Shown: in pieces, positions 1-37,386 of the stretch
Layout: every line of letters starts with the position of its first letter
How positions within the stretch are numbered: the first letter of the stretch is position 1
NCBI GenBank assembly: GCA_963806665.1
Contig: CAWDYM010000002.1
Span: 2,326 to 66,325 of the forward strand
Direction: 5' to 3'
DNA length: 64,000 nt
Origin: an uncultured Alphaproteobacteria bacterium
GTDB taxonomy: Bacteria > Pseudomonadota > Alphaproteobacteria > Rhizobiales > Beijerinckiaceae
Translations under genes and position numbers: made by a program
Notes under the pieces: generated by a model
Database searches by the model: none
Told to the model about the DNA's origin: nothing
Seen by the model: only the letters and a program-made list of their open reading frames with translations

Positions 1-16
1 TTGATAAGGAGCCGCG

Positions 17-1031
17 ATGAAGCTCGCGTCACTCAAAGGCGGTCGCGACGGAAAGCTTGTCGTGGTTTCGCGCGATCTCAGCCGTGCGGCTTCAGCGGGC
101 GACATTGCGCCGACGCTTCAGTCTGCGCTCGACGACTGGCCGCGAGCGGAGCCTCAGCTCGCCGAACGCGCGGCTGAGATCGAGGCGGAAAAGATAGCGA
201 CGTTCCGCTTCCGTGAGCGCGACTGCGCGGCGCCGTTCCCGCGGGCCTTTCAGTGGGCGGACGGGTCAGCCTATATCAACCATGTGGAACTGGTGCGACG
301 CGCGCGGGGCGCCGAAATGCCCGCCTCTTTCCAAGTCGAGCCGCTGATGTATCAGGGCGGATCCAACTCTTTTCTCGGGGCCGCGCGATCCGATCCCCCT
401 GTGCGATGAGCGACAGGGGCTCGATCTCGAAGCCGAAGTCGCCGTTGTCGTCGACGACGTGCCGCTCGGCGTCTCGCCGGAGGCTGCGCTTCGGCATGTT
501 CGTTTGATTATGCTCGTCAACGACGTCACGTTGCGTAATCTCGTTCCCGATGAAATCAGCAAGGGCTTCGGTTTCTTTCAGTCGAAGCCATCGTCGGCCC
601 TTTCGCCCGTCGCGGTGACGCCGGATGAGCTCGGCGCAGCCTGGGCGAGCGGAAAGCTCTCGCTGCCGCTTCTGTCGTTCCTCAACGGCGCCCCGCTCGG
701 GCGGCCCAATGCGGGGCACGACATGACCTTCGACTTCGGGCGCCTGATCGCGCATGCCGCATATTCGCGGCCGCTTTCCTCCGGAACGATCATCGGCTCG
801 GGAACGGTGTCGAATCGCGGGTTGGACGGTGGGTGCAGCCTGCCGATATCGAGCGGCGGCCCCGGCTATTCCTGCCTCGCCGAGCAACGGACGGTAGAAA
901 TGCTGATCGAAGGCGCGCCGCGCACGTCATTTCTGAAGGCTGGGGACGTCGTGCGCATCGAGATGCTGGACGAACGACGACGCTCCATTTTCGGCGCAAT
1001 CGAGCAGGTGGTCCAGGCGGTTCACATCTGA
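17..1031 (+). pseudogene. Fumarylacetoacetate hydrolase (FAH) family protein, frame broken by one extra base
   Basis: ORFs 17-409 and 459-1031 are colinear halves of one FAH-family protein of about 335 aa (MKLASLKGGRDGKLVVVSRDL...QWADGSAYINHVELV...; ...GLDLEAEVAVVVDDVPLGVSPEAA...GFGFFQSKPSSALSPVAVTPDELG). The first frame reads ...GGSNSFLG and the next frame continues PRDPIPLCDE. The switch lies in G-run 377-380. AAGGAG RBS at 6-11. Confidence 0.8.
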
Positions 1032-4415: not shown

Positions 4416-4635
4416 CAGGCGGGAAAGCAGCGTGTGTTTCGGCTAGACTGCCGGAAAGCGTGGCCAAAAAATTTTTGAACACTTTTTGAGACGGCGCGTT
4501 CCACTGGATCGGAAGAGCCTCTCCCGTGTCTGCCTGCCTTGTGCGCCCCCGCATTCCCGCGACGAAATCTTCCGATTGATGACGAACTGTCGCGTTGAAT
4601 TTCCAACGCGTTGAAGCGAGGGACTTGGATCGCGC

Positions 4636-7231
4636 GTGCTCGCTGGTCTGCTCTTTCTTGTCGATCATGCTTTGCGCCACAGCCGCATTGTCATTGTCGT
4701 TTGGCTGGCGCTTGCCGTCGCCGCCGGCACCTATGCATTTTCGGCCTTTGCTCTCGATACGGACGTCAACGATCTCATTTCTCGCGATCTGCCATGGCGC
4801 AAGCGAGAGCTCGCCTATCAAGCCGCCTTTCCGCAAGGAAGAGACACGATTCTAGTGGTGATCGACGCGCCGACCCCGGAGCAGGCCGGCGCCGCCTCTC
4901 ACGCGCTCGCACAGGCGTTGCAGGATCAGCTTGCGCTTTTCCACGCCGTTCAGGAGCAGGGCGGCGGACGGTTCTTCGTACAAAACCGCTTCATGTTTTT
5001 GCCGACTGTGGAGGTTGAGAATATCGTCGATCAGCTGGTCAGAGCAAAGCCGATCCTCACTTTTCTTGTAAGCGATCAAAGTCTGAGAGGCCTTGCTAAG
5101 ACGCTCGTGTATGTCCTGCACGGACTGCAAGTCGAACGCTATTCGCTCGATGTCATAGCCGAGCCCTTGAGCGCCGCCTCCGAGACGCTCGAACGAGTTT
5201 TGCACTCGCAGCCTGCGGCTTTCTCCTGGGCTGGGCTCATGCGAAGCGGATCGGAACCCTCCGGCCGCCGGCGACTGATTTCAGTTCAGCCGGAATTATT
5301 TACCGACAAGCTCGAGCCGGGCAAAAAAGCCAGCGATTCGATTCGCAAGGCTGTGGCGGCGCTCGACCTCAGCGCAAAATTTCAGGCGGAGACGCGCCTG
5401 ACCGGTCCCGTGCCGCTCGCGGACGAACAGTTTGCAAGCGTCGAAGAAGGAAGCGCCTTTAACGGCATTGTCACGGCTTTGATCATCGTTGGCATTTTAT
5501 CGGTCGCGCTATGGTCTCTTAGGCTCGTTTGCGTCGTCATCATATGTCTGGCCGCGGGCCTGCTGGTGACCGCAGGCCTCGGCCTTCTGGTCGCCGGGGC
5601 GCTCAATCCAATCTCCATCGCCTTCGTGATGCTCTTTGTAGGCTTGGGCGCCGATTTCGCGGTTCAGTACATGATCCGTTTTCGGGCGCAGCGACATGAC
5701 TCTCCCCAGATCCAAGACGCCGTGATGCAGGCGACGGAATGGGTCGGCGTGCCCTTGGCGCTTGCGGCCGTGTCGGCGGCCGCCGGCTTTCTATCCTTCA
5801 TGCCGACTCACTATCGGGGCCTCGCCCAGCTTGGCGAGATCGCCGGCCTTGGCATGATCGTGGCGTTTGCTTCGACTTTCACGCTGCTGCCTGCGCTTCT
5901 TCAATCGTTCGGGGCGCGGATCGAGCCTCGCGCCATCGGGCAACCCGGATTGGAGCCTGTCGATCATTTCCTCCGTCGGCGGCGATATTTCGTTATTGGC
6001 GGAACGGCGCTCCTCGTGGCGGCCGGCGCCTTTTTGCTGCCTCAGTTGTCTTTCGACTTCAATCCTCTCCACCTTCAGCGAAAGTCTTCGGAAGCCGTTC
6101 GGACCTTCCTGGAGCTTAGTCGCGACCCACAGTTGGATGCGAACTCAGCGCAGATTGTGATAGGCCCTGGCGAAGACGCTGTGGCGGTCGCGGCCAGATT
6201 AGCGGCGATTCCCGAGGTTGCGCAGACACGGACGATCGAGTCTTTCATTCCCACTGATCAGACCGAAAAACTGAAAGTCCTTCATCGCTCGGCCGAAGTC
6301 CTCCTTCCGGCGTTACGCCCGCCGTTGAAGCCGACCCCGACGGATCGTGAGAGCGTCTCCGCTCTGGAAACAGCAAAAAAGGAACTCGAGGCCGCGGCTG
6401 GCAAGGAGCGCGGCGCAGGGGCGCAGGCCGCAGCGCCTGGCAAGCACTATCGGCTTGCTGGTCAATGGCGACGATGTCCTTCGCGATTGGGCGGCGAGGG
6501 CCTTTCTCTTTCCCCTCAAGGAAGATATCGGCGCTTTGCGGCTTTCCCTCAATCCGACGCCCGTGACCGTCAAATCGTTGCCGGACGACTTCAAAAGCTT
6601 ATGGATCGCCGAGGATGGCCGCCAAAGAGTCGATGTTCTTCCCAAAGGCGATCCCAACAGCGACGCAACCATCCGCAATTTCGCAAACGCTGTTCTGGCC
6701 GTAGACCCCAATGCGACAGGCCAGGCCATCGCGACCCTGATGTGGTCCCGCACGATGTTGACAGCGCTGCTGGAGGCCGCAGGCATCGCCTTCTGCGTCA
6801 TCGCAATCATACTCTGGATTCCGTTGCGAAGGATTGGCGATGTCCTTCTTACGCTCGTGCCGCTAATCGTCGCCGCGATCGTCACGCTTGAAATCTGCGC
6901 GCTCACCGGGTTCAAACTGAACTACGCGAACATCATCGCCTTTCCGGTGCTGCTTGGCATCGGCGTCGCGTTCAAAATCTACTATATCGCGGCCTGGCGG
7001 CGGGGAGAGTCCGAATTTCTTCAGTCGCCACTGACGCGTGCGGTGTTCTTCAGCGCGCTGCTCACGGCGACCGCATTCGGAAGCTTGTCTTTATCGAGCA
7101 ATCCCGGCATGTCGAGCATGGGCAAACTGCTTGCCCTCTCCCTCGCTTGCACGCTCGCCTCAGCCGTCTTGTTCCAGCCGGCTTTGATGGGGGAGCCAAG
7201 AGAAAACGCAAATCCTGATCGTCCTCATTGA
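4636..7231 (+). pseudogene. MMPL/RND-superfamily exporter (HpnN-like), frame broken by one extra base
   Basis: ORF 4636-6891 is protein-like for about 595 aa (two-TM-bundle architecture, GLGADFAVQY). It then becomes Arg/Gly-rich nonsense. The +1 frame (ORF 6347-7231) continues with RLASTIGLLVNGDD... and a second 6-TM bundle (GIGVAFKIYYI...). The junction lies within 6418-6437. Confidence 0.65.
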
Positions 7232-9288: not shown

Positions 9289-9309
9289 GCCAAAGGAGCG
9301 CTGCCGCTC

Positions 9310-16203: not shown

Positions 16204-16217
16204 CGAAGACGTTCCCC

Positions 16218-16526
16218 TCAACCCAAATGGGCGCGCGGACGAATGTCCAATCCCACAAGAACGCGTTCTTCGTTCGAAAGGTCTCCAATGATTTTCTTTA
16301 TAGGCTCAGGGAGGCGACGCACCAGTGTCGGGATCGCGAGGATCTGATCTCCTTCAGCGAGTTGTGGTCGCTCGAGAAGATCGATTACCTCGATCGAGTA
16401 ACGCCCTTCGAGATGCTGGGCGCAGATCCGGTTGAGATTCTTGATGGCGCGAACGGATTTTTCCGTATGTCCTGCGACGTAAAGGCGCAGATCCCAACGC
16501 TCTTCCTCGGGAGGGGATAAGGTCAT
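16218..16526 (-). CDS. kaiB: Circadian clock protein KaiB
   Basis: 102 aa: [84 protein letters not shown]. This is a near-canonical KaiB. The start overlaps the kaiC stop (ATGA). Confidence 0.85.
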
Positions 16527-17981
16527 CGGCTTGCTTCATGCAAACGCACGCCTGACTTGGAGATCTCCATAATTCGCCGCTTCGTGGAATGGGCCAAGCC
16601 TCGAGATTTCACGATGTGAAGTCGTCGAGCGAAATTATCGTCAACCATGAAATTACGCACCGAAATCCAGGTGTCCATAATTGACGAGACGCTCAAGTCT
16701 GTATGCCGTTCGTCCAACTGCAGAGCTGTAAAGAGCGCGGTGACGCCAATCGTTTTGAGGTGGTCAATCAGACGCAGCAGCATGCCCTGGGTCTGTTGCT
16801 GCGTGCCGCTCGAGAGCAAAGCCGAGAGCGGGTCGACGACCGCGACATCCGGCCGGAAGCTGTCGATCTCCTTCAGCATAGACGCAAGATGCGGCTCCAG
16901 ACCCTGAAGGCTTGGCCGGGCCGAATGACAGCGCAGCGCTCCGGAATCGATCCAGGGCTGCAGATCAATTCCCAGGGAACGCATGTTGCGCGTCAGCTGA
17001 CTGGGGCTTTCTTCAAAGGAGAAGAAGGAACACCGCTCGCCTCGACGACAGGCGGCTTCAGCGAAGTGAGCTGATATGCTGGTTTTGCCGGTGCCGGCGC
17101 CTCCACCCAGCAAAACGCTTGATCCCTTGTAGAACCCTTTCGCCCCGAGCATGTCGTCGAGGTCGGAAATGCCCGTCGGCACCCGCTCGTTCGAGGCGAT
17201 CTGAGCGAGGCCAATGGACGTCACCGGGAGGATGGTGATGCCGTCGCGGTCGATCAAGAAGGGGTATTCGTTCGTGCCATGTACCGAGCCGCGATATTTG
17301 AGCACGCGCAGGCGACGTGTGGAAGACTGCTCGATGAACTCGATGATCCAGCACGATCACGCAGTCGGAAACATATTCTTCAACCCCATGGCGCGTTAAC
17401 CCGTCTTCACCGCGTTCGGCGGCGATCACAGTCGACAGCCCGCGATCTTTCAGCCAATTCTGGAGGCGACCGAACTCGGAACGAACAATTGCAAGATTTG
17501 GAATGCCCGCAGAGAGTGTGTCGATACTGTCGAAAACGACGCGTTTGGCTTTTACGCGGGCGATCGCATGTCCAAGCCGCACGAACAGACCTTCGAGATC
17601 GTAATCGCCGGCCTCATGCATCGCCTGTCGGTCGAGCCAGACGTAATCTGTCGCAATCAGGCCTTTGTCCTGCAGTTCGGGCAGATCGAACCCCAAAGAA
17701 GAGACGTTGGCGAAAAGATCCTCAACACGCTCATCGAAGGAAACGAAGACGCCCGGTTCGCCATAGTCGCATGCACCCTTGACCAGAAAGGTCGCGCCCA
17801 ACAAAGTCTTTCCGCAGCCCGGCCCGCCGCAGACCAACGTGGCCCGTCCCGCTGGCAAACCGCCGCCGGTTAGCTCGTCTAAGCCTTTGACACCACTTGG
17901 TATTTTCCTTAGTTCCAGCACAACTATTCCCCGCCCCCGCGGCCGCTGGGAAATCATCATATATTGTTGCGCCGATGACAA
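16523..17981 (-). pseudogene. kaiC: KaiC (double RecA-like ATPase/autokinase), frame broken by one extra base
   Basis: CI half (ORF 17058-17981): GLDELTGGGLPAGRATLVCGGPGCGKT, good up to DCVIVLDHRV. CII half in the +1 frame (ORF 16523-17305): IEQSSTRRLRVLKYRGSVHGTNEYPFLI...GGGAGTGKT...FSFEES...LSVSSIMDT (phospho-site region). The junction is at 17336-17339. The reconstructed length is about 485 aa. Confidence 0.85.
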
Positions 17982-18102
17982 GGGAGCCGAAGTCGCACCC
18001 CTTTCACAATAATTCAGCGCGTATGCTGCAACGATTTAGCTTCGCGATGAGGTCTTCTACTTAACCCGAGGGGACAGGTTTTTCTCGGACGATTCATGTG
18101 TT

Positions 18103-18771
18103 TTGGATGCTGCCTCGCGTGAGCGGACGCTTGGAGTTGAAGAGGCTTTGCACAGGCGGCACGCCATTGTCGATCTCGAGATCAGGCCTCTGATTGCCTC
18201 GGACACGGGCGCAGCGGCGCAGTTTCTCGCGCAAAGCTTCAAACAAAGTCCGTTGTTCGAATATGCTCTCCCGAATACGACGAAGCTCACTGTGCTGGGC
18301 GCTTTATTCCGCGCCATTGTCGACGATGCGATGACATTCGGGCGCATTGAAGTGGCGATTGCTAACGAAATCGTCGGGCTATTCTTGTGGTATCCGCCAG
18401 GCCGCTACCCGATGTCAGTCTGGCGCGAACTGCGAGGGTCGCCCCGCTATCTCAAATGCGCCGCGCTGGCGCCGCTCGGGCTCATGAAGCTGTATCGGGT
18501 CCAGGCCTCGCTCGATCGGGTGCGACCGCAGCAATCGCACTGTCATGGCCATTTTCTGGCGGGGCGTCCGGGAGCCGGAATTACTGCGCTGCTTGGTCGA
18601 CGAATGCTCGATGAAGCCGATTCCTGCGGCTGGCCAAGCTATCTGGAGACGCAGGACGTGCGGACGGTCGCGCTTTATCTTCGGCTCGGTTTCGAAGTCT
18701 GCCGCTCACAATTCGTGGGCGTGCCCGGCGCGCCTCCGACCTGGACGATGTGGCGAGAGCCGCGGGCGTAA
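18103..18771 (+). CDS. GNAT-family N-acetyltransferase (putative)
   Basis: 222 aa. The C-terminal LLGRRMLDEADSCGWPSYLETQDVRTVALYLRLGFEV resembles the acetyl-CoA-binding/beta-bulge core of small GNATs. The N-terminal part is unassigned. Confidence 0.5.
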   Translation: MDAASRERTLGVEEALHRRHAIVDLEIRPLIASDTGAAAQFLAQSFKQSPLFEYALPNTTKLTVLGALFRAIVDDAMTFGRIEVAIANEIVGLFLWYPPGRYPMSVWRELRGSPRYLKCAALAPLGLMKLYRVQASLDRVRPQQSHCHGHFLAGRPGAGITALLGRRMLDEADSCGWPSYLETQDVRTVALYLRLGFEVCRSQFVGVPGAPPTWTMWREPRA

Positions 18772-18951
18772 TCACGCCCCGATCCGCCACTCACGCATAA
18801 GCCGCATTTCGCATTTTTATATTGTCGGCGGCGCCGAGTTCATTAAGCTCGACAATGGCGCCTCGCCGTTCAGGCGAGGGAACATGATCTCACGACTGCT
18901 CGTTGCCGGGTTGGATGAAGCCAACCGGCGCTCAGACAGGGTAAGAGGCAG

Positions 18952-19641
18952 ATGGTTGCGCTCTTGGAGAAAAACATCTGCGCGAGAGACACGCAGGACG
19001 GACGGCGATTTCTCCGCTCCCTATGGCTCATCGCAAGTTCCGCGCTTTTATTCAGCGTCGTGAGCGTCGCTCTTGACGGGCTTTTCGCGTCGGGAAGCTC
19101 TTTCGAGGACGGAGCCGTATGGATTTACGACATTGCGATTTACGGCCTGGCCGCCATCTCCTTTGGGCGTGGCGCAGTTCTGGAGCGAGCCACCGCCGCC
19201 TTGCTTGCGGTGGTCCTTCTCGTGGCTGGATGCCAGGGCTCCTACGACATCTGGTGCGAATTGGCGCGCAAACTCCCCGATGCGTCGGGCAGCTCGCCGG
19301 TTTCTGAGATCCTCCTTCCGACAGGTTCCGCCTTCGAGGCCGCTCTGCTCTTCCGGTTCCGGAAGGTCGGCGATCCTTTGATGCAGGCGACCTGGCTTTC
19401 CGCCCGCAACTCGGCTGCGATCGCGCTTATCGGAGCGGCGCTGCCGCTCGTCTTTCAAAAATCATGTGAGGGGCCTGAAATGGTCGTCGCGTGCCTCGAC
19501 ACTTTCCTCGCGTTTCAGGCTGCGCTCATCGTGGCCTATGAAGCTTATCCGCGTCGCGATGCGTCATCGGGCCGGCTCGGCGGGCGAGCCTATCCAAGCG
19601 GTGTGGGCGGGAATCTTCTCCCCCTTCATAACGACGGTTAG
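18952..19641 (+). CDS. Polytopic membrane protein, weak resemblance to a CDF-type cation-efflux transmembrane domain
   Basis: 229 aa with 5-6 hydrophobic segments. FGRGAVLERATAALLAV and SARNSAAIALIGAALPLVF loosely recall CDF TM motifs. The 3' end overlaps the convergent NRPS gene by 78 nt. Confidence 0.35.
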   Translation: MVALLEKNICARDTQDGRRFLRSLWLIASSALLFSVVSVALDGLFASGSSFEDGAVWIYDIAIYGLAAISFGRGAVLERATAALLAVVLLVAGCQGSYDIWCELARKLPDASGSSPVSEILLPTGSAFEAALLFRFRKVGDPLMQATWLSARNSAAIALIGAALPLVFQKSCEGPEMVVACLDTFLAFQAALIVAYEAYPRRDASSGRLGGRAYPSGVGGNLLPLHNDG

Positions 19642-22600
19642 CGGTCCAAGCCGGGCGAAATCTGCGACGTGACTGTCATACAAAATGGTGGAGCCGCAAC
19701 CCAGGGTCACGCCCTTGCCGACTTCGATTTTGCCGATTTTCATGAGCCGATCTTCATAGAGATGCGTTTGCAGCGCGCTCCCCATGTTGAGCGCGCAGTA
19801 GTCGCCCACCTTTATGCAGTCGAACTCGGTGATGTCGGTCATGTCCATAAAGACGCCTTCGCCAAAATCCGCGCCGAAGATTCGCAAAACCCAGGGCAGG
19901 AACGGCGTTCCTCGCAAATGCTCAAGCAGGACGTGCCCCGTCATCCCCCAGTACAGAACGGTGCTGGTTTCATTACGGATGGCCCAAAAAGACCACATCG
20001 GCCGCACCTGAGGCTTATAGCGGCCCATGGTCGCCCATTTCACGGCGGCGGCGACGAGCATGATCGCGACGGGGATCAACGTCGAGGCCAACACGAACCG
20101 ACCGAAGAAGGCGAGATAATCGCCCGCGATGAGGCTTTCGCCGAAGACTTCGACCGCCCATGTCCCGAACGTGATGTAGAGCATGGACGGCAAGGAGATG
20201 TTGAGCGCCTCATAAGCGGCTCGGCCCAGTTTTCTCAATCGCGTCGGCTTGAACGTCAGCGCGACATCGCTCGACCCCATTTTCTGTCGCACCGGCATGC
20301 GGATCGGAGGCGAGCCGAACCATGTCTCGCCGCTTTCGATTTTTTGTCCCGTAGGCGGCTTTGATTTGACGCCGATCAGCGCGTCGGAGGGAAGTTCGAT
20401 CCCCGGCGGCACGACGGCGTCATTGCCGATAAAAACCCGATCGCCCGTCTTGACGGGCTTCAAATGCATCCAGCCTCTTCGGATGTCTTCATCGCCAATC
20501 GCGACTTCGTCCGCAACGAAGCAATTCTCGCCAATCGAAATGATGTCATACCGACCGGCGATGTTGGTCGCAATTTCCGAACCGGTGCCGATGCGGGCGC
20601 CCATCAGCCGATACCAGGTTCGCATGTAAAGGGTGGCGTAAAGAGAAGACAGCGTTTCAAGCGCGACTTCGGTCGCCAGGGACACAGCCCAGCGACGAAC
20701 GTAGAACGACGACCAGACAGAGTAGGTCCCCGCCTCGGCCCGAGGCAACAGAAGCCAACGGAACGCGACGACCAGAGCGATGGTGGTCAACACCAGGACG
20801 AAAGCAGTCGGCCACGCGAGCAACGGTATCGCGGCGAGATAGTAATGGTATTGCAACTCCGAGAATTTCATGGCCGCTTCGATTCGATCGAAGGCCCAGA
20901 ATGCAGGGAAAATCGGCAGGAGCCCGAGCACGGGGAGAACCAGCACAGCGGACACAGACGCGAGAAACACGGCGGTCCGTCTGAGAATGCTCGCCTGCGC
21001 GGGCGCATCGAGCGAGCTTGTGTCGACCTCTCCGACGTGCTGGCCGGGTGTGCCATCCCAGATTTCGTTGGGGCCGATCTGCGATCCGCTCGGGAGAGAC
21101 GTCAGATCCTCCAGCGTGGCTCCGTCGCCGATTGCGACGTTTTCCTCGATTACGCAGCCTGTGCCGATGTAAGCGTCTTTTCCGATCTCGACGGCGCCGA
21201 TGACCAGCTCATTTCCCTCGACCCGGGCGTTGGCGATTCTGAGCTTGGAGCCAAGTGAAGCGCCTGAACCGATCGAGAGGAGGTCTATCGCGCCTATTTC
21301 GATGTCGCTGATCTGCACATCTCGGCCGATCCTCGCGCCGATTGCGGAGAGGTAAAGGGGCATCAGCGGGGAGTTCTGCAGAAGGCGGGCGTTCGTGAGC
21401 CCCAGCAGACGCTGCGAAAGCCACCATCGGAAGAAATAGACGCCCCACAAGGGGTAGCGACCGGGTTTGGTTCGCCCAATGACAAGCCACTTTCCTGCGA
21501 TGGAGAGCGCCAGCGTCGCCATGGTGATGGCGATTATGATGCCGAACAAGCTCGTCGCTTCTTCGAGAAAGCTCGCATTGACCGGGGTGATGAGAATATA
21601 CGACACGAATATCGCGAGCCACTGCGCCGTTGAAACGGACAGCAGGACCGGCAGAATTGAGAGTTGCGCCAAACCGCAGAGAATGCGCTTGCGAAGAGGC
21701 GGAGGCTGGAATTCCAGATCTCCCGACGGCTTCGCCGCCTTCTGGTTCAACCGATCGGCAAGATTGCGCAGCGTGCGACAGGCATACAAATCCTGCAGCG
21801 TGATCGACGCGAGATCGGGCGTTTCGCGGACGAGGGAGACAAACCGGGCCGCAAGGAGCGAATGTCCGCCCAGTTCAGTGAAAAAATCCGCGTCGAACGG
21901 AACAACCGAGATCGAGAGCGCTTGCCTTGCGGCGTTCAGGAGATTCGCTTCGACGTCGTTACGCGGTTCATCCTGCTCCTCGTCATCACTGTCCGGCGGT
22001 CGCGACAGGGGCATGGCCCTGAGAAATCTTGCGGTCGACTTTCCCCGAAGTCAGCGTCGGCAGCGCGGAAACTAACTGAAATCTCGAAGGCGCCATGTAA
22101 GAGGGCAGGGTTTTCCTGAGTTCGAACCGCAAGTCTCGTTCGCCCGGCAGGGGCCCGTCAGCCACGATGAACGCCACCAGCTGGTCGAGACCCCCGTCGG
22201 TGCGCAAAACGACTGCCGCCTGCCTCACATTGGGCAGAGAATGGAGAACCGCTTCGATCTCCCCGAGCTCCACCCGGAAGCCGCGAATCTTGACCTGATC
22301 GTCAACGCGTCCCCTGAAGACGAGGTCGCCACATTCGTTGACCACGACGGCGTCGCCCGATCGATAGAGGATCGGATCGGCGCCGGTTCCGCCGAACGGG
22401 TTCCTGATGAACTTCTCGGCGGTGAGAATTTCGCGCTTCAGGTAGCCCTTCGCTACGCCGGGCCCGCCGATCAGAAGCTCGCCTTCTTGACCAAGTGGAA
22501 GAAGCTCAAGCGCCTCGTTGACGACATAACAGGAATAATTCGGGATTGGCCTGCCGATCGTCACGGTCTCGCCCGATCTGACCGTGGCGATCGTCGCCAC

Positions 22601-23692
22601 CACTGTCGCTTCGGTCGGCCCATAGCTGTTGAAGATGATGCGATCGTCGCGACACCAGCGTTCGGCGACGCTCGAAGGGCAGGCCTCGCCGCCAAGGATG
22701 ATGATGCGCAGCGTCGCGACGTCGCGTGGCAGCGCATTCAGCAGCGTCGGAACCGTATCGAGGACCGTTACGGCGGCTCGCTCCAGAACATCTGGCAAGG
22801 CTTCCGTGTCGGCCAGCATCTCGGCGGTGGCGACAAACAGCGTGGCTCCGGAAAGGTAGGCGACCCAGATCTCTTCCATCGAAAGATCGAAAGCCAGGGA
22901 CGCGCCTTGGAAAATCACGTCGGCGGCGGAGAGCTGATATATTTCGTTGGCGGCGCGCAGATAGTGACAAATATTCCGGCCGGTAATGATGGTTCCCTTA
23001 GGCTTGCCGGTCGAGCCGGACGTATAAATGATATAGGCGGGATCATCTGGCGACGCGCCTAATTCTCTTGCGGTCGGAAGCGTGTCTTCGCCCTCGACGC
23101 TTGCGTCGGACGTCGTGATGACGCGCAGCTCAAGGCCTGACGCTTTGGGCGAAAACGCCTCGGAAGTAAGTAGGTAACGCGCTTCCGCGTCGACAAGACA
23201 AGTCGCGATGCGGTCGATGGGCGCTTCGGCGTCGAAGGGCAGCCACGCGGCGCCGGTTTTCGCAATTGCAAGTTGGGCGATCAAGAGATCGAACCCTCGA
23301 GCCATCCACAGACCAACCACATCGCCAGGAGCGACGCCGCAAGCCAGCAAGCCTCTCTTGAGAGTCTCCGAGCGGGCGTCGAGGTCCCGATAAGTCATGG
23401 AATGAGTAGCGCTCTTCAAGGCCAGAGCGTCAGGATTGCGTCTCACGCTCGCGGCGAATATCTCGCAGAGCAATTCCTCCCGGATGCTGTCTTCGAATTT
23501 GTTTCCATAAAGAACAGAAGAATCCTGGACCTCTCGATCCAAAATCCCGATCGTGGCGGTCTGAAAGACGACGGGCCGATCATTCATGCTGTGCGGCGCC
23601 TGAGGTTCAAGGTGAGATTGCGGTGGATTTTCGACGTGCGTTACGGGCATGTGGGCGGTATCATTCCAATCTGCGGCGAGCGAGGTCGTCAT
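19564..23692 (-). pseudogene. Pls/PosA-family single-module NRPS (A domain, PCP, three TM-flanked hexapeptide-repeat domains), frame broken by one extra base
   Basis: ORF 21986-23692 carries adenylation cores (YIIYTSGSTGKPKG, NSYGPTEATV, YRSGD, GRVDDQVKIRGFRVELGEIE, GKVDRK). The +1 frame (ORF 19564-22014) carries the PCP (FFTELGGHSLLAARF). It then has three blocks of two TM helices followed by a left-handed beta-helix repeat (GARIGRDVQISD..., GARIGTGSEIAT..., GADFGEGVFMDM...). No HHxxxDG condensation motif or GxSxG thioesterase motif. The junction is at 22024-22027. The reconstructed length is about 1375 aa. Confidence 0.85.
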
Positions 23693-23747
23693 GAGGCTAC
23701 TTTCAAAGTCCGATCCATCAGAAAATCACGGCCGTTTTTCAGGCCGG

Positions 23748-24167
23748 ATGTGGCGATGGAAAGAGTGCTCCCCAAAAGCGCGCTTGGCGCCGATCCTACT
23801 TGTCCTGCATATGTATCCGACCGTTTCATTTGCGCAGGTTGCGCCCCCCAAGCCGACCGGTCCGGAGGGAGGCCCGCAACTCACGGAGCTTCATTCGGCC
23901 ACTCCGCCGCTTACAAAATTTGAAGCGCGGCGCATTCGTCACCGGTGCCAGGATCAGGCTGGCGGGTCATCCTCGAACAGAGACGTCCACCTACGTCATT
24001 GCTTCGAAATGCATGTCGCCGCGCGCCGCCTTTGGAGCCAGTGCAAGCACAAATTCGCGACGGTCAATCTGCATGGACGGGAAAAAGACGAAGCAATCAG
24101 GCGCTGTGTGCTGGAGGCGTTAGACAGCAGCAAAAAAGGTCAACCGATCGAACCTCCGCGCCGTTGA
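23748..24167 (+). CDS. Hypothetical small exported protein
   Basis: Signal-like N-terminus (ARLAPILLVLHMYPTVSFAQ) and 4 Cys in the mature part. It sits in a visibly AT-richer stretch. I recognise no family. Confidence 0.3.
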   Translation: MWRWKECSPKARLAPILLVLHMYPTVSFAQVAPPKPTGPEGGPQLTELHSATPPLTKFEARRIRHRCQDQAGGSSSNRDVHLRHCFEMHVAARRLWSQCKHKFATVNLHGREKDEAIRRCVLEALDSSKKGQPIEPPRR

Positions 24168-24591
24168 GCGCCGGAGACGCACTGCCCGCCTCAAGATGCA
24201 GCACAAGGCCGGAAAAACATTTTCTGATTCGTATGCACGGCGTTTCTGAATTATTTCCACCGCGCGATTAGCGCGGACTTGACGGAAATGGGCGCCACTC
24301 GCGTCGACAAAGCCTTCTGTATATCGGCGTGTCGCTCGAAGTTGGACGAAACGTAAGAGCGGTATGGGGTGTGTTCAAGCCGGCGCTGTAGTCAAAAACA
24401 ACGCTTCTCACTCAAGGCGTGGCTCGCTCGACCCGACGCACGTGCTGGCATTCAGACTAGAGGAATTGCAGGCGAAGTCTGGTTCCGGGATCGCAGAACG
24501 AATGGCGCGCTCGTCACCGGCAGATGCGTATCGCAGGGCGGCAACTTTTCTCCCGCCCCGACGGATCGCCAGGCGGCATACAGAGCTGCTT

Positions 24592-24604
24592 GCTTATTAT
24601 AAGC
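24592..24604 (+). promoter_or_regulatory. Candidate MarR/EmrR operator
   Basis: 13-bp palindrome GCTTAT-T-ATAAGC, 34 nt upstream of the TTG start of the MarR gene. It lies in an AT-rich stretch that could also hold the -10 element. Confidence 0.3.
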
Positions 24605-24637
24605 TGGCATACTATCTCGGGGACTAAGGAGATTCCC

Positions 24638-25105
24638 TTGCCGACCAGATCCGACAGGCGCGAATTGGCGTTCACCCTCAACGACGTCGCTCGACTGCTG
24701 CGGACCTGCGCCGATCAGAAGGCGGCCGAGTTCGGCATGAGCCGCGCCAAATGGGCTGTGCTCGCCCGCCTCGATCGCTTCGAGGGTCTGAAGCAGGCCG
24801 AACTCGCCGACATGCTCGACCTTCAGCCGATAACCCTGACCCGCCTTCTCGACGGCCTGTGCGAAAGCGGGTTGATTGAGCGCCGCCCGGACCCGGACGA
24901 TCGCCGTGCGAAGCGGCTGTTTCTCACGCCCGCGGCGCGCCCGCTGCTCGAGCGCCTGAGCGTCCTTGGCGGCGAACTGATGGACAAGGCGCTTGAGGGA
25001 TTGGACGCCTCCCGCGTCGCGGCTTTGCTGACGGATCTCTCGGTCATCAAGGAGAATCTGCGCCGGTCCGCGCAGCGGCGGGAGGCGGCGCAACGCCATG
25101 GCTGA
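24638..25105 (+). CDS. MarR-family transcriptional regulator (EmrR-like)
   Basis: Winged-helix core LARLDRFEGLKQAELADMLDLQPITLTRLLDGLCESGLIERRPDPDDRRAKRLFLT. TTG start at 24638 with AAGGAG at 24626-24631. The ORF track starts upstream at 24524. Confidence 0.85.
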   Translation: MPTRSDRRELAFTLNDVARLLRTCADQKAAEFGMSRAKWAVLARLDRFEGLKQAELADMLDLQPITLTRLLDGLCESGLIERRPDPDDRRAKRLFLTPAARPLLERLSVLGGELMDKALEGLDASRVAALLTDLSVIKENLRRSAQRREAAQRHG

Positions 25106-26234
25106 CGCAAGCGCGGCTTCTTCGGGCCAGAACGCGAAACGTATCTCCGCTACCGCGAGACCGGCAGCGACCGCCCGCCGGAATTTGCGTCTCTTCCTCA
25201 TCGCCGGCGCGCCGGCGATCGCTTTGCTCGCCGGCCTTGCGTTCTATCTCTCCGGCGGACGATACGTCTCGACCGACAACGCCTATATCGGCGCCCAGAA
25301 GGTGCTGATCACCCCGGACATTTCTGGAAGGGTAAGCCGTGTCCTCATTCGCGAGGGGCGGCATGTGGCTGCGGGAGACGAACTCTTCGACATCGACCCG
25401 GCTCCGTTCGAATTCGCGCTGCGGCAAGCGCAAAGCCGGCTGGATACGGTTCGCGCCGACTTCGCCAATCTCAAGTCCAATTACAGATCGTTGAAGCGCC
25501 TGATCGAACTTGGCGAGCAGACGATCGGCGTCAAGAAGCGCATGTTCGACCGCAAGGCGGCGCTCGCTTCCCGCCAGTTCAGCACGCAGAACGATGTGGA
25601 CAACGCCAGCGCGGCGCTGCTGACGGCGGAATTGCAGTTGCAGCCGATGCGCCAGCAACTCGCCGCTACCCTCAATCAGTTGCAGGGCGATCCGGACCTC
25701 GCGATTGACGACTATCCGCAGTATCGCGAGGCAAAGGCCGCCCTGGATCAGGCCCGGCGCGATCTGGATCATACGGTGATCAAGGCGCCGATCGCGGGAG
25801 TCGCCACGCAGGTCGACAATATCCAGTTGGGGCGTTTCGTCACCGCGGGCGCTCCCATTTTCAGCGTGATCGACGACGCGGCGCCTTGGGTCGACGCCAA
25901 TCCCAAGGAGACGGACATCACGCATCTGCGCGTCGGGCAGGAGGTCGCGATTGATGTCGACACTTTCCCCGGCCGCCCGTTCCAGGGTCATGTCGCCTCT
26001 ATCGGGCCGGGCACGGGCGCCCAGTTCGCCATCCTGCCGCCGCAGAACGCCAATGGCAATTGGGTGAAGGTCGCGCAGCGCGTTCCGGTCCGCATTGCCT
26101 TCGACCCGGGGCAGAAGCTCTCCGCCTTGCGCGCGGGGATGAGCGTCACGGTGGAGATTGACACGCGCCGGCGGCGCGGGTTCGCCGCGCTCTTTGGCGC
26201 CGGAGAGAGCCTCGCCGACGAAGACCGCAAATGA
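25098..26234 (+). CDS. emrA: HlyD/EmrA-family membrane fusion protein
   Basis: 378 aa with an N-terminal TM. Motifs: YVSTDNAYIGAQKVLITPDISGRV, a long coiled coil, IKAPIAGVATQVDNIQLG, NWVKVAQRVPVRI. Overlaps both the MarR stop and the emrB start. Confidence 0.9.
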   Translation: MADASAASSGQNAKRISATARPAATARRNLRLFLIAGAPAIALLAGLAFYLSGGRYVSTDNAYIGAQKVLITPDISGRVSRVLIREGRHVAAGDELFDIDPAPFEFALRQAQSRLDTVRADFANLKSNYRSLKRLIELGEQTIGVKKRMFDRKAALASRQFSTQNDVDNASAALLTAELQLQPMRQQLAATLNQLQGDPDLAIDDYPQYREAKAALDQARRDLDHTVIKAPIAGVATQVDNIQLGRFVTAGAPIFSVIDDAAPWVDANPKETDITHLRVGQEVAIDVDTFPGRPFQGHVASIGPGTGAQFAILPPQNANGNWVKVAQRVPVRIAFDPGQKLSALRAGMSVTVEIDTRRRRGFAALFGAGESLADEDRK

Positions 26235-27755
26235 CGGCTTCGCGGCCGGGCGCCGGCCGGGCCATGGTGACGATCTGCGCGATGAGCGCCACGATCATGC
26301 AGGCGCTCGATACGACGATCGCAAATGTCGCTCTGCCGCATATGCAGGGGAGCCTCTCGGCCTCTCTCGATCAGATCAACTGGGTCCTGACCTCCTACAT
26401 CGTCGCCGCGGCGATCATGACGGCGCCGATCGGCTGGGTATCGGAAAGATTCGGCCGCAAGCGCCTCTTCGTCATCTGCGTCGCCGGCTTCACCATCGCC
26501 TCCGTCTTTTGCGGCTTCGCGCGGAACATCGAGCAGATGGTCCTCTTCCGTCTCTTGCAGGGCGCTTTCGGCGCCGCGCTGGTGCCCTTGTCTCAGGCGG
26601 TGATGCTCGACTCCTATGAAGCGCATGAGCGCGGTTCGGCCATGGCGATCTGGGGCGTCGGCGTCATGCTTGGGCCGATCATGGGGCCGACCCTCGGCGC
26701 GTGGCTCACCGACAATTACAGCTGGCGCTGGGTCTTTTTCATCAATCTGCCAATCGGCGTGCTCACGGTTGCGGGCCTCCTCGCCTTCATGCAGGAAACC
26801 GCCTTCAACCGCGGTCGTCGGTTCGACTGGTTCGGCTTCGCTGCGCTTGCCCTCGGCATCGGCGCGTTTCAGGTGATGCTGGACCGGGGAGAACAGGCGG
26901 GCTGGTTCGAACTCCCGCGAGATCGTCGGGGAGGGGATCGTCTCGGCGATCGGGTTCTATTTCTTTCTCGCCCATTCGGCGACGACGTCGAACCCATTCC
27001 TTCGGCTGGACTTGTTCCGGGACCGGAATTTTGTCGCGGGCTGCCTGTTTATGCTCGTCATCGGCGTCGTGCTGTTCGCCACCATGGCGCTGGTGACGCC
27101 CTACATGCAGAATGTCGTCGGCTATCCCATCCTGACCGCCGGCTTCCTGCTCGCCAGCCGCGGCGGCGGCACGCTCGTCGCCATGATTCTGGTCGGGCGT
27201 CTCCTCAAGATCATCGAGGCGCGGTATCTTGTTCTCGCCGGTCTCTCGCTCGCCGCGCTGACGCTGTATCAGATGGCGGCGTTCACCGATCTGACGTCGT
27301 CGGGAACGATCGTCGTCGCGAGCGTCCTTCAGGGTTTTGGCCTCGGTCTCGTTTTCGTGCCGCTCAACACGGTGGCCTTCGCGACCCTGCCGATCGCGCT
27401 CAGAACCGAAGGGACCGCAATGCTGACCCTCCTGAGAAACATCGGAAGTTCGGTCGGCATTTCCCTTGTCATCGCGCGCCTCACGGAAGGAACGATCGAG
27501 GCGCATGCGCGGCTCGTCGAATTGGTCACGCCTTTCAGCGGCCCGCTGGCGAGTGCGCCGGCGCCGCTCGACGCGACGACCGAGCAGGGCCGCGTTTTGC
27601 TGGAGGCGCTCGTTTCGCAGCAAGCCGCCGTCATCGCCTACGGTGAAGACTTCAAAGGCCTCTTGTTTCTCGTCATCGCCGCGCTTCCGCTGGTTTTCAT
27701 CATCGGTTCGTCCCGCATCCCGCAAACCGCTCCCGGCGACGTCGTCATCGATTGA
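26231..27755 (+). pseudogene. emrB: DHA2 (EmrB/QacA) 14-TM MFS drug exporter, frame broken by one extra base
   Basis: ORF 26231-27646 is good up to ...LDRGEQAGWF. The +1 frame continues NSREIVGEGIVSAIGFYFFLAHSATTSNPFLRLDLFRDRNFVAG... (ORF 27012-27755). The extra base is at about 26909. Motifs: MQALDTTIANVALP, WVSERFGRKRLF. Confidence 0.85.
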
Positions 27756-29027: not shown

Positions 29028-29040
29028 GGCCGTGATTTCT

Positions 29041-37314: not shown

Positions 37315-37386
37315 GTGATTTTCCTCAGCTCAAAGTTGGATGTGCGCGAATAGCATTGCGCGCCGTCACAGGAAAGACGCCGCGGG

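What the first reader, a model, noticed from the sequence alone, without database searches (positions are those of the whole stretch)
19564..23692. Pls/PosA-type membrane NRPS: candidate cationic homo-poly(amino acid) synthetase of unknown product
After repairing one frameshift, this is a single protein of about 1375 aa. It has one adenylation domain, one PCP (GGHSL), and three repeats of two TM helices followed by a hexapeptide-repeat (acetyltransferase-like) soluble domain. It has no condensation or thioesterase motifs. That is the architecture established for epsilon-poly-L-lysine synthetase and its relatives that make poly-diaminopropionate, poly-diaminobutyrate or delta-poly-ornithine. 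My hand alignment of the specificity-pocket residues gives roughly D-L-E-T-I-G-S-V-V-K. The acidic residue at position 239 is as expected for a basic (diamino) substrate, and the pattern resembles the lysine-type code as I remember it. This needs a proper tool. I am not aware of a described polymer of this kind from methanotroph-like Alphaproteobacteria. The product, chain length and role (antimicrobial, metal or cell-surface function) are open.
Basis: partly seen in the sequence, partly recalled or inferred. Interest (0 to 1): 0.7.

Follow-up and report, generated by a model that had tools for sequence, protein, structure and literature searches.

The report
Membrane polylysine-type peptide synthetase gene
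This is a gene for a membrane-bound enzyme of the known Pls/PosA family, which strings one basic amino acid (most likely lysine) into a positively charged polymer; it is an ordinary member of a family that databases already recognise, and its single frameshift is most likely a sequencing error.

Summary
On the minus strand, 19564-23692 holds two overlapping ORFs. Removing one base at 22024-22027 joins them into one protein: A domain, PCP (GGHSL), then a ~700-aa domain of three repeats, each two membrane helices plus a left-handed beta-helix. There is no C or TE domain. The protein matches NCBIfam TIGR02353 ("Pls/PosA family NRPS") above its cut-off and aligns end to end with PosA (41% identity).

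- The likely start is ATG 23587, giving 1340 aa, the length of the homologues.
- The specificity code is DLEDIGSVVK. Position 278 is D, not T.

This code is fixed across all 120 closest homologues (Methylocystis, Methylosinus, Methylocapsa, Bosea, Methylobacterium). Patel & Gulick 2023 listed this code class as an "uncharacterized binding pocket", and antiSMASH calls it NAPAA in Bosea. It matches 8-9 of 10 positions of MmaA (DIEDVGSVVK), which was shown to activate L-Lys and not L-Orn. L-lysine is therefore the best guess.

The frameshift is one of five +1 homopolymer insertions in the window, and the repaired protein shows no decay. It is probably an artefact (about 80%). Verdict: a new member of a known kind, product untested, moderate-to-low interest.

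The parts
19564..23587 (-). Whole gene as I read it. It is a Pls/PosA-family single-module membrane NRPS of 1340 aa after one base is removed at 22024-22027. The longest possible ORF starts at ATG 23692 (1375 aa).
   Evidence: ORFs and translations. The start is inferred from the conserved MND motif in homologues. Homologues are 1333-1342 aa.
22025..23470 (-). Adenylation domain with core motifs YTSGSTGKPKG, FDLS, NSYGPTE, YRSGD, GRVDDQVKIRGFRVELGEIE and SGKVDRK. The specificity pocket is D-L-E-D-I-G-S-V-V-K, at codons 22886-8, 22883-5, 22874-6, 22757-9, 22697-9, 22691-3, 22625-7, 22601-3, 22598-600 and 22040-2.
   Evidence: TIGR01733 at 399.5 bits; PF00501 and PF13193. The best solved relative is the PosA A-core 8G95 (378 bits), against Pls 7WEW at 259 bits.
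22024..22027 (-). Frameshift site. One extra base in 'aag-ATTT-ctc' lies in the A-PCP linker, one codon after the A10 motif. ORF1 then runs 13 out-of-frame codons to TGA at 21986-21988. ORF2's ATG at 22012-22014 is a Met codon shared with several homologues (7 of the 16 aligned relatives), not an obvious start.
   Evidence: Sequence and three-frame translation. Junction alignment with 16 relatives.
21748..21942 (-). Peptidyl carrier (thiolation) domain. The phosphopantetheine-attachment serine of LGGHSL is at 21859-21861.
   Evidence: PF00550 at 34.9 bits.
19579..21669 (-). C-terminal membrane polymerisation domain (the Pls/PosA 'NRPS terminal domain').
   Evidence: TIGR02353 at 593 bits against a cut-off of 423, with the full profile covered. 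About 41% identity to the PosA C-terminal domain, collinear. AF2 model with pTM 0.85.
21010..21729 (-). Repeat 1: TM helices at about 21589-21696 and 21481-21570, then a left-handed beta-helix at about 21028-21303.
   Evidence: AF2 secondary structure, hydropathy, Hexapep Pfam hit, repeat alignment.
20275..21009 (-). Repeat 2: TM helices at about 20869-20988 and 20749-20859, then a left-handed beta-helix at about 20296-20541.
   Evidence: Hexapep_2 hit.
19567..20274 (-). Repeat 3: TM helices at about 20128-20241 and 20029-20118, then a left-handed beta-helix at about 19630-19872.
   Evidence: Acetyltransferase-type NCBIfam hits fall on ORF2 residues 690-812.
18952..19641 (+). Convergent neighbour: a short CDF-like membrane protein with the transmembrane domain only (229 aa here, 201 aa in cultured Methylocystis). 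Its 3' end overlaps the NRPS 3' end by 78 nt. It is linked to the NRPS only in the nearest subclade, so membership of the system is doubtful.
   Evidence: 56% identity to the gene in the same position in Methylocystis sp. Sn-Cys and MJC1. Homologues carry PF01545. More distant homologues are not next to a Pls/PosA gene.
23649..24167 (+). Divergent upstream ORF (172 aa, no family). It is conserved next to the NRPS in the nearest subclade only, and its role is unknown.
   Evidence: tblastn and tblastx matches in L001, L037 and L060. A 172-aa gene sits in the same position in L076 and L077. No Pfam or NCBIfam hit.

Best explanation
The locus encodes one Pls/PosA-family cationic homo-poly(amino acid) (CHPA) synthetase.

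Mechanism, inferred from the family:
- The A domain adenylates a basic amino acid and loads it as a thioester on the PCP serine.
- The C-terminal domain (six membrane helices carrying three beta-helix acyltransferase-like lobes) repeatedly joins the activated carboxyl to the side-chain amine of a free monomer or growing chain.
- This produces an isopeptide-linked polycation that is released outside the cell. No C or TE domain is needed, and no partner gene is needed.

The pocket D-L-E-D-I-G-S-V-V-K most likely selects L-lysine. The expected product is therefore an epsilon-poly-L-lysine-type polymer of unknown length.

The single +1 frameshift in the A-PCP linker is most likely a sequencing or assembly error rather than a real lesion.

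What is shown: domain content, family membership, pocket residues, and conservation across the clade.

What is inferred: polymerisation chemistry, substrate, export, and that the gene is intact in the organism.
For: Family and architecture:
- TIGR02353 scores 593 bits against a cut-off of 423, over the full profile. TIGR01733, PP-binding and Hexapep are present, and no C or TE domain is hit.
- The protein aligns end to end with biochemically characterised PosA (41% identity over 1336 aa) straight across the repaired junction.
- The three internal repeats are homologous. The AF2 model has pLDDT 80.3 and pTM 0.85 and shows three copies of [two long helices + beta-helix]. This is the model published for PosA (PMC10522769).

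Basic substrate:
- D235 and E239 are conserved in all CHPA synthetases and are essential in PosA (D217A and E221A are inactive). Both are present here.

Lysine:
- MmaA (DIEDVGSVVK) and ScoA (DTEDVGTVVK) strongly prefer L-Lys and do not activate L-Orn in ATP-PPi exchange (bioRxiv 10.1101/121228).
- The window's code matches MmaA at 8 of 10 positions, and both differences are conservative (L/I and I/V). Its Methylosinus and Methylocapsa orthologues (DLEDVGSVVK) match at 9 of 10.
- It also matches Pls DAESIGTVVK at 7 of 10, against PosA at 5 of 10.

Frameshift as artefact:
- Five genes in the window are each broken once by a +1 shift (one extra base): an FAA-hydrolase gene at about 377-380 (GGG to GGGG), hpnN at about 6430-6475, kaiC at about 17336-17339, this gene (TT to TTT), and an emrB-like MFS gene at 26909-26912 (A to AA). 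At the four sites resolved to the base, the extra base lengthens a short homopolymer; the hpnN site was not resolved.
- There are no nonsense mutations or deletions.
- The repaired protein departs from 390 near-invariant columns of 121 homologues at only one position, which is the median for intact homologues.
- Fifteen of 16 relatives have one uninterrupted ORF. The exception is a MAG whose copy has two frameshifts of its own.
Against: - No member of the DLED clade has been tested. Patel & Gulick list this pocket as uncharacterised.
- Within CHPA synthetases, position 236 correlates with substrate length (Gly for beta-Lys, Ala for Lys, Met for Orn, Phe for Dab/Dap). M218A raises PosA's Lys activity about ten-fold. 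By that rule, Leu would argue for something shorter than Lys.
- In overall sequence the clade is closer to PosA-type (Orn) enzymes (38-41%) than to Pls-type enzymes (33-38%).
- All five frameshifts lie in the first 27 kb, among accessory genes. None was seen in the housekeeping genes of 27-64 kb. Uniform sequencing error does not predict this; real mutations filtered by selection would.
- The source reads could not be examined. No window protein could be traced to a public record.
Confidence: 0.68

Rival explanations
1. Same enzyme family, but the substrate is not lysine. The DLED pocket would select ornithine, 2,4-diaminobutyrate, arginine or another basic amino acid, so the clade would make delta-poly-ornithine or a polymer not yet described.
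For: Leu at position 236 is about the size of PosA's Met218, the proposed length gate. The nearest characterised relative by whole-protein identity is PosA, and by A-core score it is PosA 8G95 over Pls 7WEW. The pocket has a second acidic residue (D278) that characterised CHPA synthetases lack. Patel & Gulick flag it as an unknown pocket, and a different unusual pocket (Bdellovibrionales) preferred Arg.
Against: Non-CHPA A domains with almost the same ten residues, including both E239 and D278 and a beta-branched or aliphatic residue at 236, are Lys-specific and reject Orn. PosA's Ser313, important for binding the delta-amine (183-fold loss in S313A), is Val here as in Pls.
Confidence: 0.3
2. 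The frameshift is real and the gene is a recently inactivated pseudogene. This would be a redundant or accessory copy in a low-GC island that is decaying along with neighbouring accessory genes.
For: Five broken genes cluster in the first 27 kb, among accessory functions, while core genes at 27-64 kb are intact. The region 14-24 kb has lower GC (0.58-0.60, against 0.62-0.69 elsewhere), and the gene's GC3 is 0.70-0.73 against about 0.78-0.87 in core genes. The window's copy belongs to a small subclade found in varying genomic contexts. At least one MAG carries two Pls/PosA loci, L011 and L056.
Against: All five lesions are the same kind (+1 shifts; homopolymer extension at the four sites resolved), with no stop codons, deletions or IS elements. 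That is a technology-like error spectrum, not the mixed, deletion-biased spectrum of gene decay. The repaired protein is as well conserved as intact homologues, with 1 of 390 invariant sites changed. hpnN and kaiC would also have to be dead.
Confidence: 0.15
3. The frameshift is real but tolerated. The enzyme would work as two polypeptides: a stand-alone A domain (ORF1, complete through A10) that loads in trans the PCP of ORF2 (PCP plus polymerisation domain, translated from ATG 22014).
For: The lesion falls exactly in the inter-domain linker, one codon after A10, and 10-13 nt upstream of an in-frame ATG. Both products would be complete domains. Trans-acting A domains are common in NRPS systems (general knowledge).
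Against: There is no convincing ribosome-binding site before ATG 22014; AGGG ends 2 nt from it. That Met is simply a linker residue shared with several homologues. No natural split member was seen among the 16 relatives aligned or the 120 best hits, which are all about 1300-1440 aa (1639 aa in one). Four other frameshifts in the window are not at domain boundaries.
Confidence: 0.04
4. The protein is not a free-polymer synthase. The membrane acyltransferase-like domain would transfer the activated amino acid, once or a few times, to an envelope acceptor such as a lipid or glycan. This would be a housekeeping surface-charge function in Hyphomicrobiales.
For: In other subclades the gene sits among housekeeping genes (fabI, aroC, lgt, pgeF) rather than in a biosynthetic cluster. 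It is near-universal in several genera, for example all eight complete Bosea genomes. The beta-helix lobes resemble O- and N-acyltransferases.
Against: All seven characterised family members (Pls, PosA and the Dap, L-Dab, D-Dab, beta-Lys and branched-Dap enzymes) make homopolymers. PosA is likewise a stand-alone gene. The whole C-terminal domain is collinear with PosA, with about 200 residues invariant across the clade in the C-terminal-domain alignment (PosA collinearity).
Confidence: 0.07

Closest known systems
PosA, delta-poly-L-ornithine synthetase of Acinetobacter baumannii (Patel & Gulick 2023, PMC10522769; PDB 8G95-8G98)
   Same: Same three-part architecture and length. The alignment is collinear at 41% identity over 1336 aa. 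PosA is the best solved-structure match for the A core (378 bits). D and E are at pocket positions 1 and 3. It is a stand-alone gene without a cluster.
   Different: The pocket is DLEDIGSVVK against DMEHNGTVSK, 5 of 10 identical. PosA's delta-amine ligand Ser313 is Val here. His260 is Asp, and Met218 is Leu. The substrate is therefore probably different.
Pls, epsilon-poly-L-lysine synthetase of Streptomyces albulus (Yamanaka et al. 2008, as cited in PMC10522769; A domain PDB 7WEW)
   Same: Same architecture and the presumed same chemistry. The pocket floor I-G-(S/T)-V-V-K is shared, 7 of 10 identical. Lysine is the substrate I think most likely.
   Different: Pocket positions 236 (Ala to Leu) and 278 (Ser to Asp) differ. 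Similarity is lower: the A domain scores 259 bits against 378 for PosA, and Pls-code representatives are 33-38% identical overall. Pls is actinobacterial, whereas this clade is alphaproteobacterial.
First A domains of the isonitrile-lipopeptide NRPSs MmaA/Rv0101 and ScoA (Harris et al. 2017, bioRxiv 10.1101/121228)
   Same: The ten-residue code is nearly identical: DIEDVGSVVK and DTEDVGTVVK against DLEDIGSVVK. L-Lys preference, with no L-Orn activation, was shown experimentally.
   Different: These are conventional C-A-T-R NRPSs that acylate one lysine and release it reductively. They have no membrane polymerisation domain. Only the pocket is comparable.
antiSMASH 'NAPAA' (non-alpha poly-amino acid) clusters of Bosea, and the 'D L E D I/L G T V T/V/I K' group of Rhizobia and Methylobacterium
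   Same: Same clade and code class. Bosea orthologues are about 51-52% identical over the PCP plus C-terminal part and carry DLEDIGSVVK or DLEDLGTVVK. The group is listed as an uncharacterized pocket in PMC10522769.
   Different: Nothing functional is known for any of them. The window's copy belongs to a small Methylocystis subclade (74-78% identity to its nearest members) with its own two small neighbouring genes.
Trimeric left-handed beta-helix acyltransferases (maltose and galactoside O-acetyltransferases, serine acetyltransferase, LpxA/LpxD, gamma-carbonic anhydrases)
   Same: Each of the three soluble lobes has this fold (Foldseek probability 1.0, E about 1e-5 to 1e-6; weak sequence hits).
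   Different: Here the three lobes are fused in one chain and alternate with membrane helix pairs. No solved structure covers more than one lobe; TM-score normalised to the query is at most 0.18.

Membership tests
Pls/PosA family (cationic homo-poly(amino acid) synthetases; NCBIfam TIGR02353) | Curated family model for the C-terminal 'NRPS terminal domain' matched above its cut-off | tested here: met
   593 bits against a cut-off of 423.1, profile positions 2-695 of 695.
Pls/PosA family (cationic homo-poly(amino acid) synthetases; NCBIfam TIGR02353) | One adenylation domain followed by one carrier domain with the phosphopantetheine serine | tested here: met
   TIGR01733 at 399.5 bits, PF00501, PF13193 and PF00550; LGGHSL is present.
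Pls/PosA family (cationic homo-poly(amino acid) synthetases; NCBIfam TIGR02353) | Six transmembrane helices in three pairs, each pair followed by a soluble beta-helix ('C1-C3') region with weak mutual homology | tested here: met
   Hydropathy finds five strong segments and one weaker one. The AF2 model shows three copies of [two long helices + beta-helix] with pTM 0.85. The repeats are 24-28% identical, E 1e-8 to 1e-22.
Pls/PosA family (cationic homo-poly(amino acid) synthetases; NCBIfam TIGR02353) | No condensation or thioesterase domain | tested here: met
   Pfam and NCBIfam scans of both ORFs give no C or TE family.
Pls/PosA family (cationic homo-poly(amino acid) synthetases; NCBIfam TIGR02353) | Asp at pocket position 1 and Glu at position 3 (alpha-amine and side-chain-amine ligands conserved in all CHPA synthetases) | tested here: met
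   The code is DLEDIGSVVK. The column mapping recovers the published PosA, Pls, beta-Lys and Dap codes. The requirement is stated in PMC10522769.
Pls/PosA family (cationic homo-poly(amino acid) synthetases; NCBIfam TIGR02353) | All domains on a single uninterrupted polypeptide | tested here: inconclusive
   The sequence as given has a +1 frameshift at 22024-22027. Four other +1 frameshifts in the window and the lack of decay point to an artefact. Reads were not available.
Pls/PosA family (cationic homo-poly(amino acid) synthetases; NCBIfam TIGR02353) | Makes an isopeptide-linked homopolymer of a diamino (basic) amino acid | not testable with these tools
   Needs enzyme assay or product analysis. 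No clade member has been characterised in the literature searched.
epsilon-poly-L-lysine synthetase (Pls) in the strict sense | Pls-type pocket D-A-E-S-I-G-T-V-V-K | tested here: not met
   7 of 10 identical, with A236L and S278D. Lysine is still the favoured substrate because of the MmaA/ScoA codes, so it may work like Pls without being a Pls orthologue.
delta-poly-L-ornithine synthetase (PosA) in the strict sense | PosA-type pocket D-M-E-H-N-G-T-V-S-K, including Thr304 and Ser313 as delta-amine ligands | tested here: not met
   5 of 10 identical. Ser313 is Val and Thr304 is Ser.

The most novel reading that the evidence does not exclude
The DLED-pocket clade is conserved across Methylocystaceae, Beijerinckiaceae, Bosea and Methylobacterium, and often sits among housekeeping genes. 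It might not make epsilon-polylysine. It might make a cationic polymer not yet described, or decorate the cell envelope with it, giving methanotrophs and their relatives a previously unrecognised surface or antimicrobial polycation.
Probability: 0.2. Interest if true: 0.6.

Novelty: new member of a known kind. Interest (0 to 1): 0.3.

Why it matters
If the enzyme is active, methanotrophic and related Hyphomicrobiales would be natural producers of an epsilon-polylysine-like polycation. Such polymers are food-grade antimicrobials and cell-penetrating agents. So far they have been shown only for actinomycetes, a few fungi and Acinetobacter.

The clade is large, and its pocket is invariant in all 120 nearest homologues. 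One biochemical assay would therefore assign a product to hundreds of genomes, and would test whether the 'position-236 length ruler' proposed for this family holds.

For this particular window the practical message is more modest. The gene is a routine family member. The assembly carries several single-base insertion errors that break genes.

Tried and rejected
- Tracing the window to a public record to inspect other assemblies or reads: exact-protein look-ups of ORF1 (two starts), ORF2, the histidine kinase and AcrB all returned nothing. The genome-collection scan found only relatives at 84% identity or less.
- Looking for a solved structure of the polymerisation domain: sequence search and fold search of the AF2 model hit only single beta-helix acyltransferases and gamma-carbonic anhydrases.
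- Looking for precursor-supply or tailoring genes in conserved synteny. Across 74 related loci the recurrent neighbours are housekeeping genes: fabI, aroC, lgt, pgeF, a deacetylase-family gene and a sigma factor. Only the nearest subclade shares two small ORFs.
- Testing whether the convergent CDF-like membrane gene is a general partner: its more distant homologues are not next to Pls/PosA genes, so this was rejected as a system component.
- Literature string searches for the exact code found nothing. A badly chosen term ('LEDIG') gave only noise. A search for a cryo-EM structure and a NAPAA-plus-methanotroph search were uninformative.
- The promoter and terminator scan around the gene gave counts no better than shuffles.
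- A full phylogeny with Pls, PdpS and PdbS could not be built, because only the PosA sequence (OCR from the supplement) was obtainable. I used pocket codes and pairwise identities of 85 family representatives instead.
- One search failed because of a wrong frame and was repeated.

Full report
**What is in the sequence.** On the minus strand there are two long ORFs, 21986..23692 (568 aa) and 19564..22014 (816 aa). They overlap by 29 nt in different frames.
- ORF1 is a complete NRPS adenylation domain: TIGR01733 at 399.5 bits, with PF00501 and PF13193.
- ORF2 begins with a carrier domain (PF00550, LGGHSL). It then matches the whole of NCBIfam TIGR02353, "Pls/PosA family non-ribosomal peptide synthetase", at 593 bits against a curated cut-off of 423.
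- No condensation or thioesterase family is hit.

ORF1 ends 13 codons after the A10 motif SGKVDRK. The other frame is open from just upstream of that motif. In 15 of 16 relatives taken from genome contigs the gene is one ORF that reads GKVDRK-[S/A]-L-x-x-[M/x]-L with the same spacing.

The homologues' conserved MND start aligns with Met36 of the long ORF. The gene is therefore more likely 19564..23587, giving 1340 aa after repair. The nearest homologues are 1333-1342 aa.

**Architecture of the C-terminal part.**
- Hydropathy finds five strong membrane segments and one weaker one, in three pairs.
- The three thirds of the domain align with each other at 24-28% identity, with E from 1e-8 to 1e-22.
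- An AlphaFold2 model built on 49 sequences (pLDDT 80.3, pTM 0.85) shows the same unit three times: two long helices, a strand, a few helices, then a left-handed beta-helix. This is the arrangement modelled for PosA (PMC10522769).
- No experimental structure of this domain exists in the PDB copy searched. Sequence and fold searches return only single beta-helix acyltransferases and gamma-carbonic anhydrases, each covering one lobe.

**Family placement.** The repaired protein aligns from residue 58 to the C-terminus with PosA of Acinetobacter baumannii (41% identity over 1336 columns), straight through the repaired junction. Among solved A domains, the PosA core (8G95) scores 378 bits and the Pls A domain (7WEW) 259 bits.

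The polymerisation domain alone finds 655 representatives (50%-identity clusters) at E ≤ 1e-30 in a library of 1.84 billion, so the family is large. Several are already named "Pls/PosA family non-ribosomal peptide synthetase" by NCBI. The window's protein sits in a small subclade with Methylocystis sp. Sn-Cys and MJC1 (74-78% identity). This subclade is distinct from the main Methylocystis/Methylosinus group at about 66%.

**Specificity pocket.** Aligning to PosA and to 120 homologues gives D-L-E-D-I-G-S-V-V-K. The same columns return DMEHN(G)TVSK for PosA. In 85 family representatives they return the published Pls (DAESIGTVVK), beta-Lys (DGESISVVNK) and Dap/Dab (DFE...) codes, so the mapping is sound.

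All 120 nearest homologues have D-L-E-D-[I/V/L]-G-[S/T/G]-V-V. Among family representatives the DLED pocket occurs only in this clade and in one 43%-identical neighbour. Patel & Gulick (2023) noticed it in Rhizobium, Methylobacterium and archaea and marked it "uncharacterized binding pocket". A Bosea genome note reports it as the code of an antiSMASH NAPAA cluster present in all eight complete Bosea genomes. I found no report of a product.

**Which substrate.** Asp235 and Glu239 are the ligands of the alpha-amine and side-chain amine. They are conserved in every CHPA synthetase and essential in PosA. A basic amino acid is therefore well supported.

For its identity there are two conflicting leads:
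- Within the family, the size of residue 236 falls as the substrate lengthens (Phe for Dap/Dab, Met for Orn, Ala for Lys, Gly for beta-Lys), and PosA M218A gains Lys activity. By that rule, Leu would suggest something shorter than Lys. The clade is also closer overall to PosA-type than to Pls-type enzymes.
- The first A domains of MmaA/Rv0101 (DIEDVGSVVK) and ScoA (DTEDVGTVVK) carry almost the same ten residues, including both acidic positions and an aliphatic residue at 236. By ATP-PPi exchange they strongly prefer L-Lys and do not activate L-Orn.

The window's code differs from MmaA's only by Leu/Ile and Ile/Val. The Methylosinus and Methylocapsa orthologues differ only by Leu/Ile. PosA's Ser313, a key ligand of the ornithine delta-amine, is Val here as in Pls.

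I therefore rate L-lysine as the most likely substrate (about 0.5). Ornithine or another basic amino acid is a serious rival (about 0.3).

**Is the frameshift real?** Scanning the rest of the window by Pfam and NCBIfam coverage turned up four more genes, each split once by a +1 shift:
- an FAA-hydrolase-family gene (SFLG|PRDPIPL; GGG to GGGG at about 377-380);
- hpnN (the profile stops at 602 of 858 and continues in the next frame);
- kaiC (LDHRV|IEQSSTRRL; about 17336-17339);
- an emrB-like MFS gene (MFS_1 profile 2-176 in one ORF and 177-346 in the next; GWF|SREIVGE; A to AA at 26909-26912).

All five lesions are +1 shifts (one extra base). At the four sites resolved to the base, the extra base lengthens a short homopolymer; the hpnN site was not resolved. 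There are no nonsense codons or deletions. That uniform spectrum looks like a sequencing or consensus error mode rather than gene decay.

The repaired synthetase differs from 390 near-invariant alignment columns at one position (R to K), which is the median for its 120 intact homologues. One related MAG (L060) has the orthologue broken by two frameshifts of its own, which shows that such breaks occur in assemblies.

Against this, all five sites lie in the first 27 kb, among accessory genes. The housekeeping genes tested at 27-64 kb (opgG/H, pyrD, glmU, glmS, lptF/G, hrcA, priA, rsmH, ftsI) are intact. That pattern is what selection acting on real mutations would leave.

I could not reach reads or another assembly. 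No window protein is on record under an exact look-up. The window's own contig appears to be 68,931 nt. I put "artefact" at about 0.8.

If the shift were real, its position in the A-PCP linker, just before an in-frame ATG, would leave two complete halves that could conceivably work in trans. However, there is no good ribosome-binding site, and no natural split member was seen.

**Surroundings.** Only the nearest subclade shares two small neighbours.
- One is a convergent CDF-like membrane protein with the transmembrane domain only (18952..19641, +). It overlaps the synthetase's 3' end by 78 nt, is 56% identical to the gene in the same place in Methylocystis Sn-Cys and MJC1, and belongs to a family with only 41 members in 5.8 billion proteins.
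- The other is a divergent 172-aa ORF with no family (23649..24167, +).

More distant homologues of the CDF-like protein are not next to a Pls/PosA gene, so I do not count it as part of the system. In other subclades the synthetase lies among housekeeping genes: fabI, aroC, lgt and pgeF. Like posA, it is in effect a stand-alone gene. No precursor-supply or tailoring gene is conserved beside it, which fits a proteinogenic substrate such as lysine.

The window's copy lies in a stretch of lower GC (0.58-0.60). Its GC3 is lower than that of the core genes. It is flanked by a kaiC/hybrid-kinase pair and a marR-emrA-emrB operon, which are absent from the relatives' loci.

**How it most likely works.** Steps 1 to 3 rest on characterised relatives, and none of these steps was shown for this protein.
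1. The A domain forms the aminoacyl-adenylate and thioesterifies it to the PCP serine. This is standard NRPS chemistry, and the motifs are present.
2. The membrane domain catalyses attack of the side-chain amine of a free monomer or chain on the thioester. It does so iteratively, giving an isopeptide polymer. This has been shown for Pls and PosA and requires the C-terminal domain.
3. The polymer leaves the cell, with chain length set by the enzyme. This is inference.
4. By analogy, biological roles are antimicrobial or antifungal activity, or effects on biofilm.

**Verdict.** The object is a routine member of a family that annotation pipelines already recognise (NCBIfam "Pls/PosA family", antiSMASH "NAPAA"). 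It belongs to a sub-clade whose unusual pocket has already been pointed out in print but never assayed.

The new points from this analysis are:
- the corrected code and start;
- the near-identity of the pocket to experimentally Lys-specific A domains;
- evidence that the frameshift is one of several insertion errors in the contig.

Novelty: new member of a known kind. Interest: about 0.3.

Noticed in passing
window ~377-380 (+), ~6430-6475 (+), ~17336-17339 (-), 26909-26912 (+): Four more genes are each split by a single +1 shift (a homopolymer-extending insertion at the three sites resolved; the hpnN site was not resolved): an FAA-hydrolase-family gene (ORFs 8..409 and 348..1031), the hopanoid transporter hpnN (4615..6891, continuing to about 7217), kaiC (17058..17981 and 16523..17305) and an emrB-like MFS transporter (26231..27646 and 26877..27755). 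With the synthetase that makes five, all in the first 27 kb. Genes tested at 27-64 kb are intact.
   Followed up: partly
window 18952-19641 (+): A short CDF-like (Cation_efflux) membrane protein with the transmembrane domain only. It is convergent with the synthetase gene and overlaps its 3' end by 78 nt. It has a 28-aa tail that the 201-aa Methylocystis Sn-Cys and MJC1 versions lack. The family is rare (41 homologues in 5.8 billion proteins) and is linked to the synthetase only in this subclade.
   Followed up: yes
window 23649-24167 (+): A 172-aa ORF divergent from the synthetase, with a possible signal peptide. It has no Pfam or NCBIfam family. It is conserved in the same position in the nearest relatives (L001, L037, L060, L076, L077). 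Function unknown.
   Followed up: partly
window 14000-24000: GC content is lower (0.58-0.60) than the rest of the window (0.62-0.69). The synthetase's GC3 is 0.70-0.73, against about 0.78-0.87 in core genes. The block of small ORF, synthetase and CDF-like gene sits in different genomic contexts in the window, in L001/L037 and in L075/L076. It may be an accessory or mobile copy. At least one related MAG carries two Pls/PosA loci (L011, L056).
   Followed up: partly
window 13949-17981 (-): A KaiC homologue (two KaiC domains, frameshifted) lies near (about 600 nt from) a hybrid PAS-HisKA-HATPase-receiver histidine kinase. This is a KaiC-type signalling pair in a methylotroph-like genome. It is not present beside the synthetase in relatives.
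   Followed up: no
window 24524-27755 (+): A marR-like regulator, an EmrA/HlyD-type membrane fusion protein and an EmrB-like MFS pump (frameshifted) form an apparent operon about 1 kb upstream of the synthetase. Similar MFS/OEP/EmrA genes lie a few kb from the orthologue in Methylocystis MJC1 (L076), but in a different arrangement.
   Followed up: no
window 18103-18771 (+): A 222-aa ORF whose C-terminal part reads like a GNAT acetyltransferase motif (…GAGITALLGRRMLDEAD…YLETQ…LYLRLGFEV). It gives no Pfam or NCBIfam hit and is not conserved next to the synthetase in relatives. The resemblance is by eye only.
   Followed up: partly
window 28194-29913 (-): Two tandem paralogues of the amino-acid-kinase fold match archaeal-type UMP kinase only weakly (47-54 bits, well below the cut-off). 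Their function is unclear.
   Followed up: no
window 4615-13830 (+) and 36769-63495: General content fits a methylotrophic or methanotrophic alphaproteobacterium: hpnN; an RND efflux set (OEP, MFP, AcrB); formaldehyde-activating enzyme Fae (36769-37329); pyrD; opgG/opgH (39647-43404); glmU; glmS; ABC-2 transporter; lptF/G; hrcA; priA; and the start of the dcw cluster (rsmH, ftsI).
   Followed up: no
L060 (MAG MFD01476.bin.2.49) 8297-12372: The orthologous synthetase in this related MAG changes frame twice, at about 11205 and about 11830. This shows that broken copies of this long gene occur in metagenome assemblies.
   Followed up: partly
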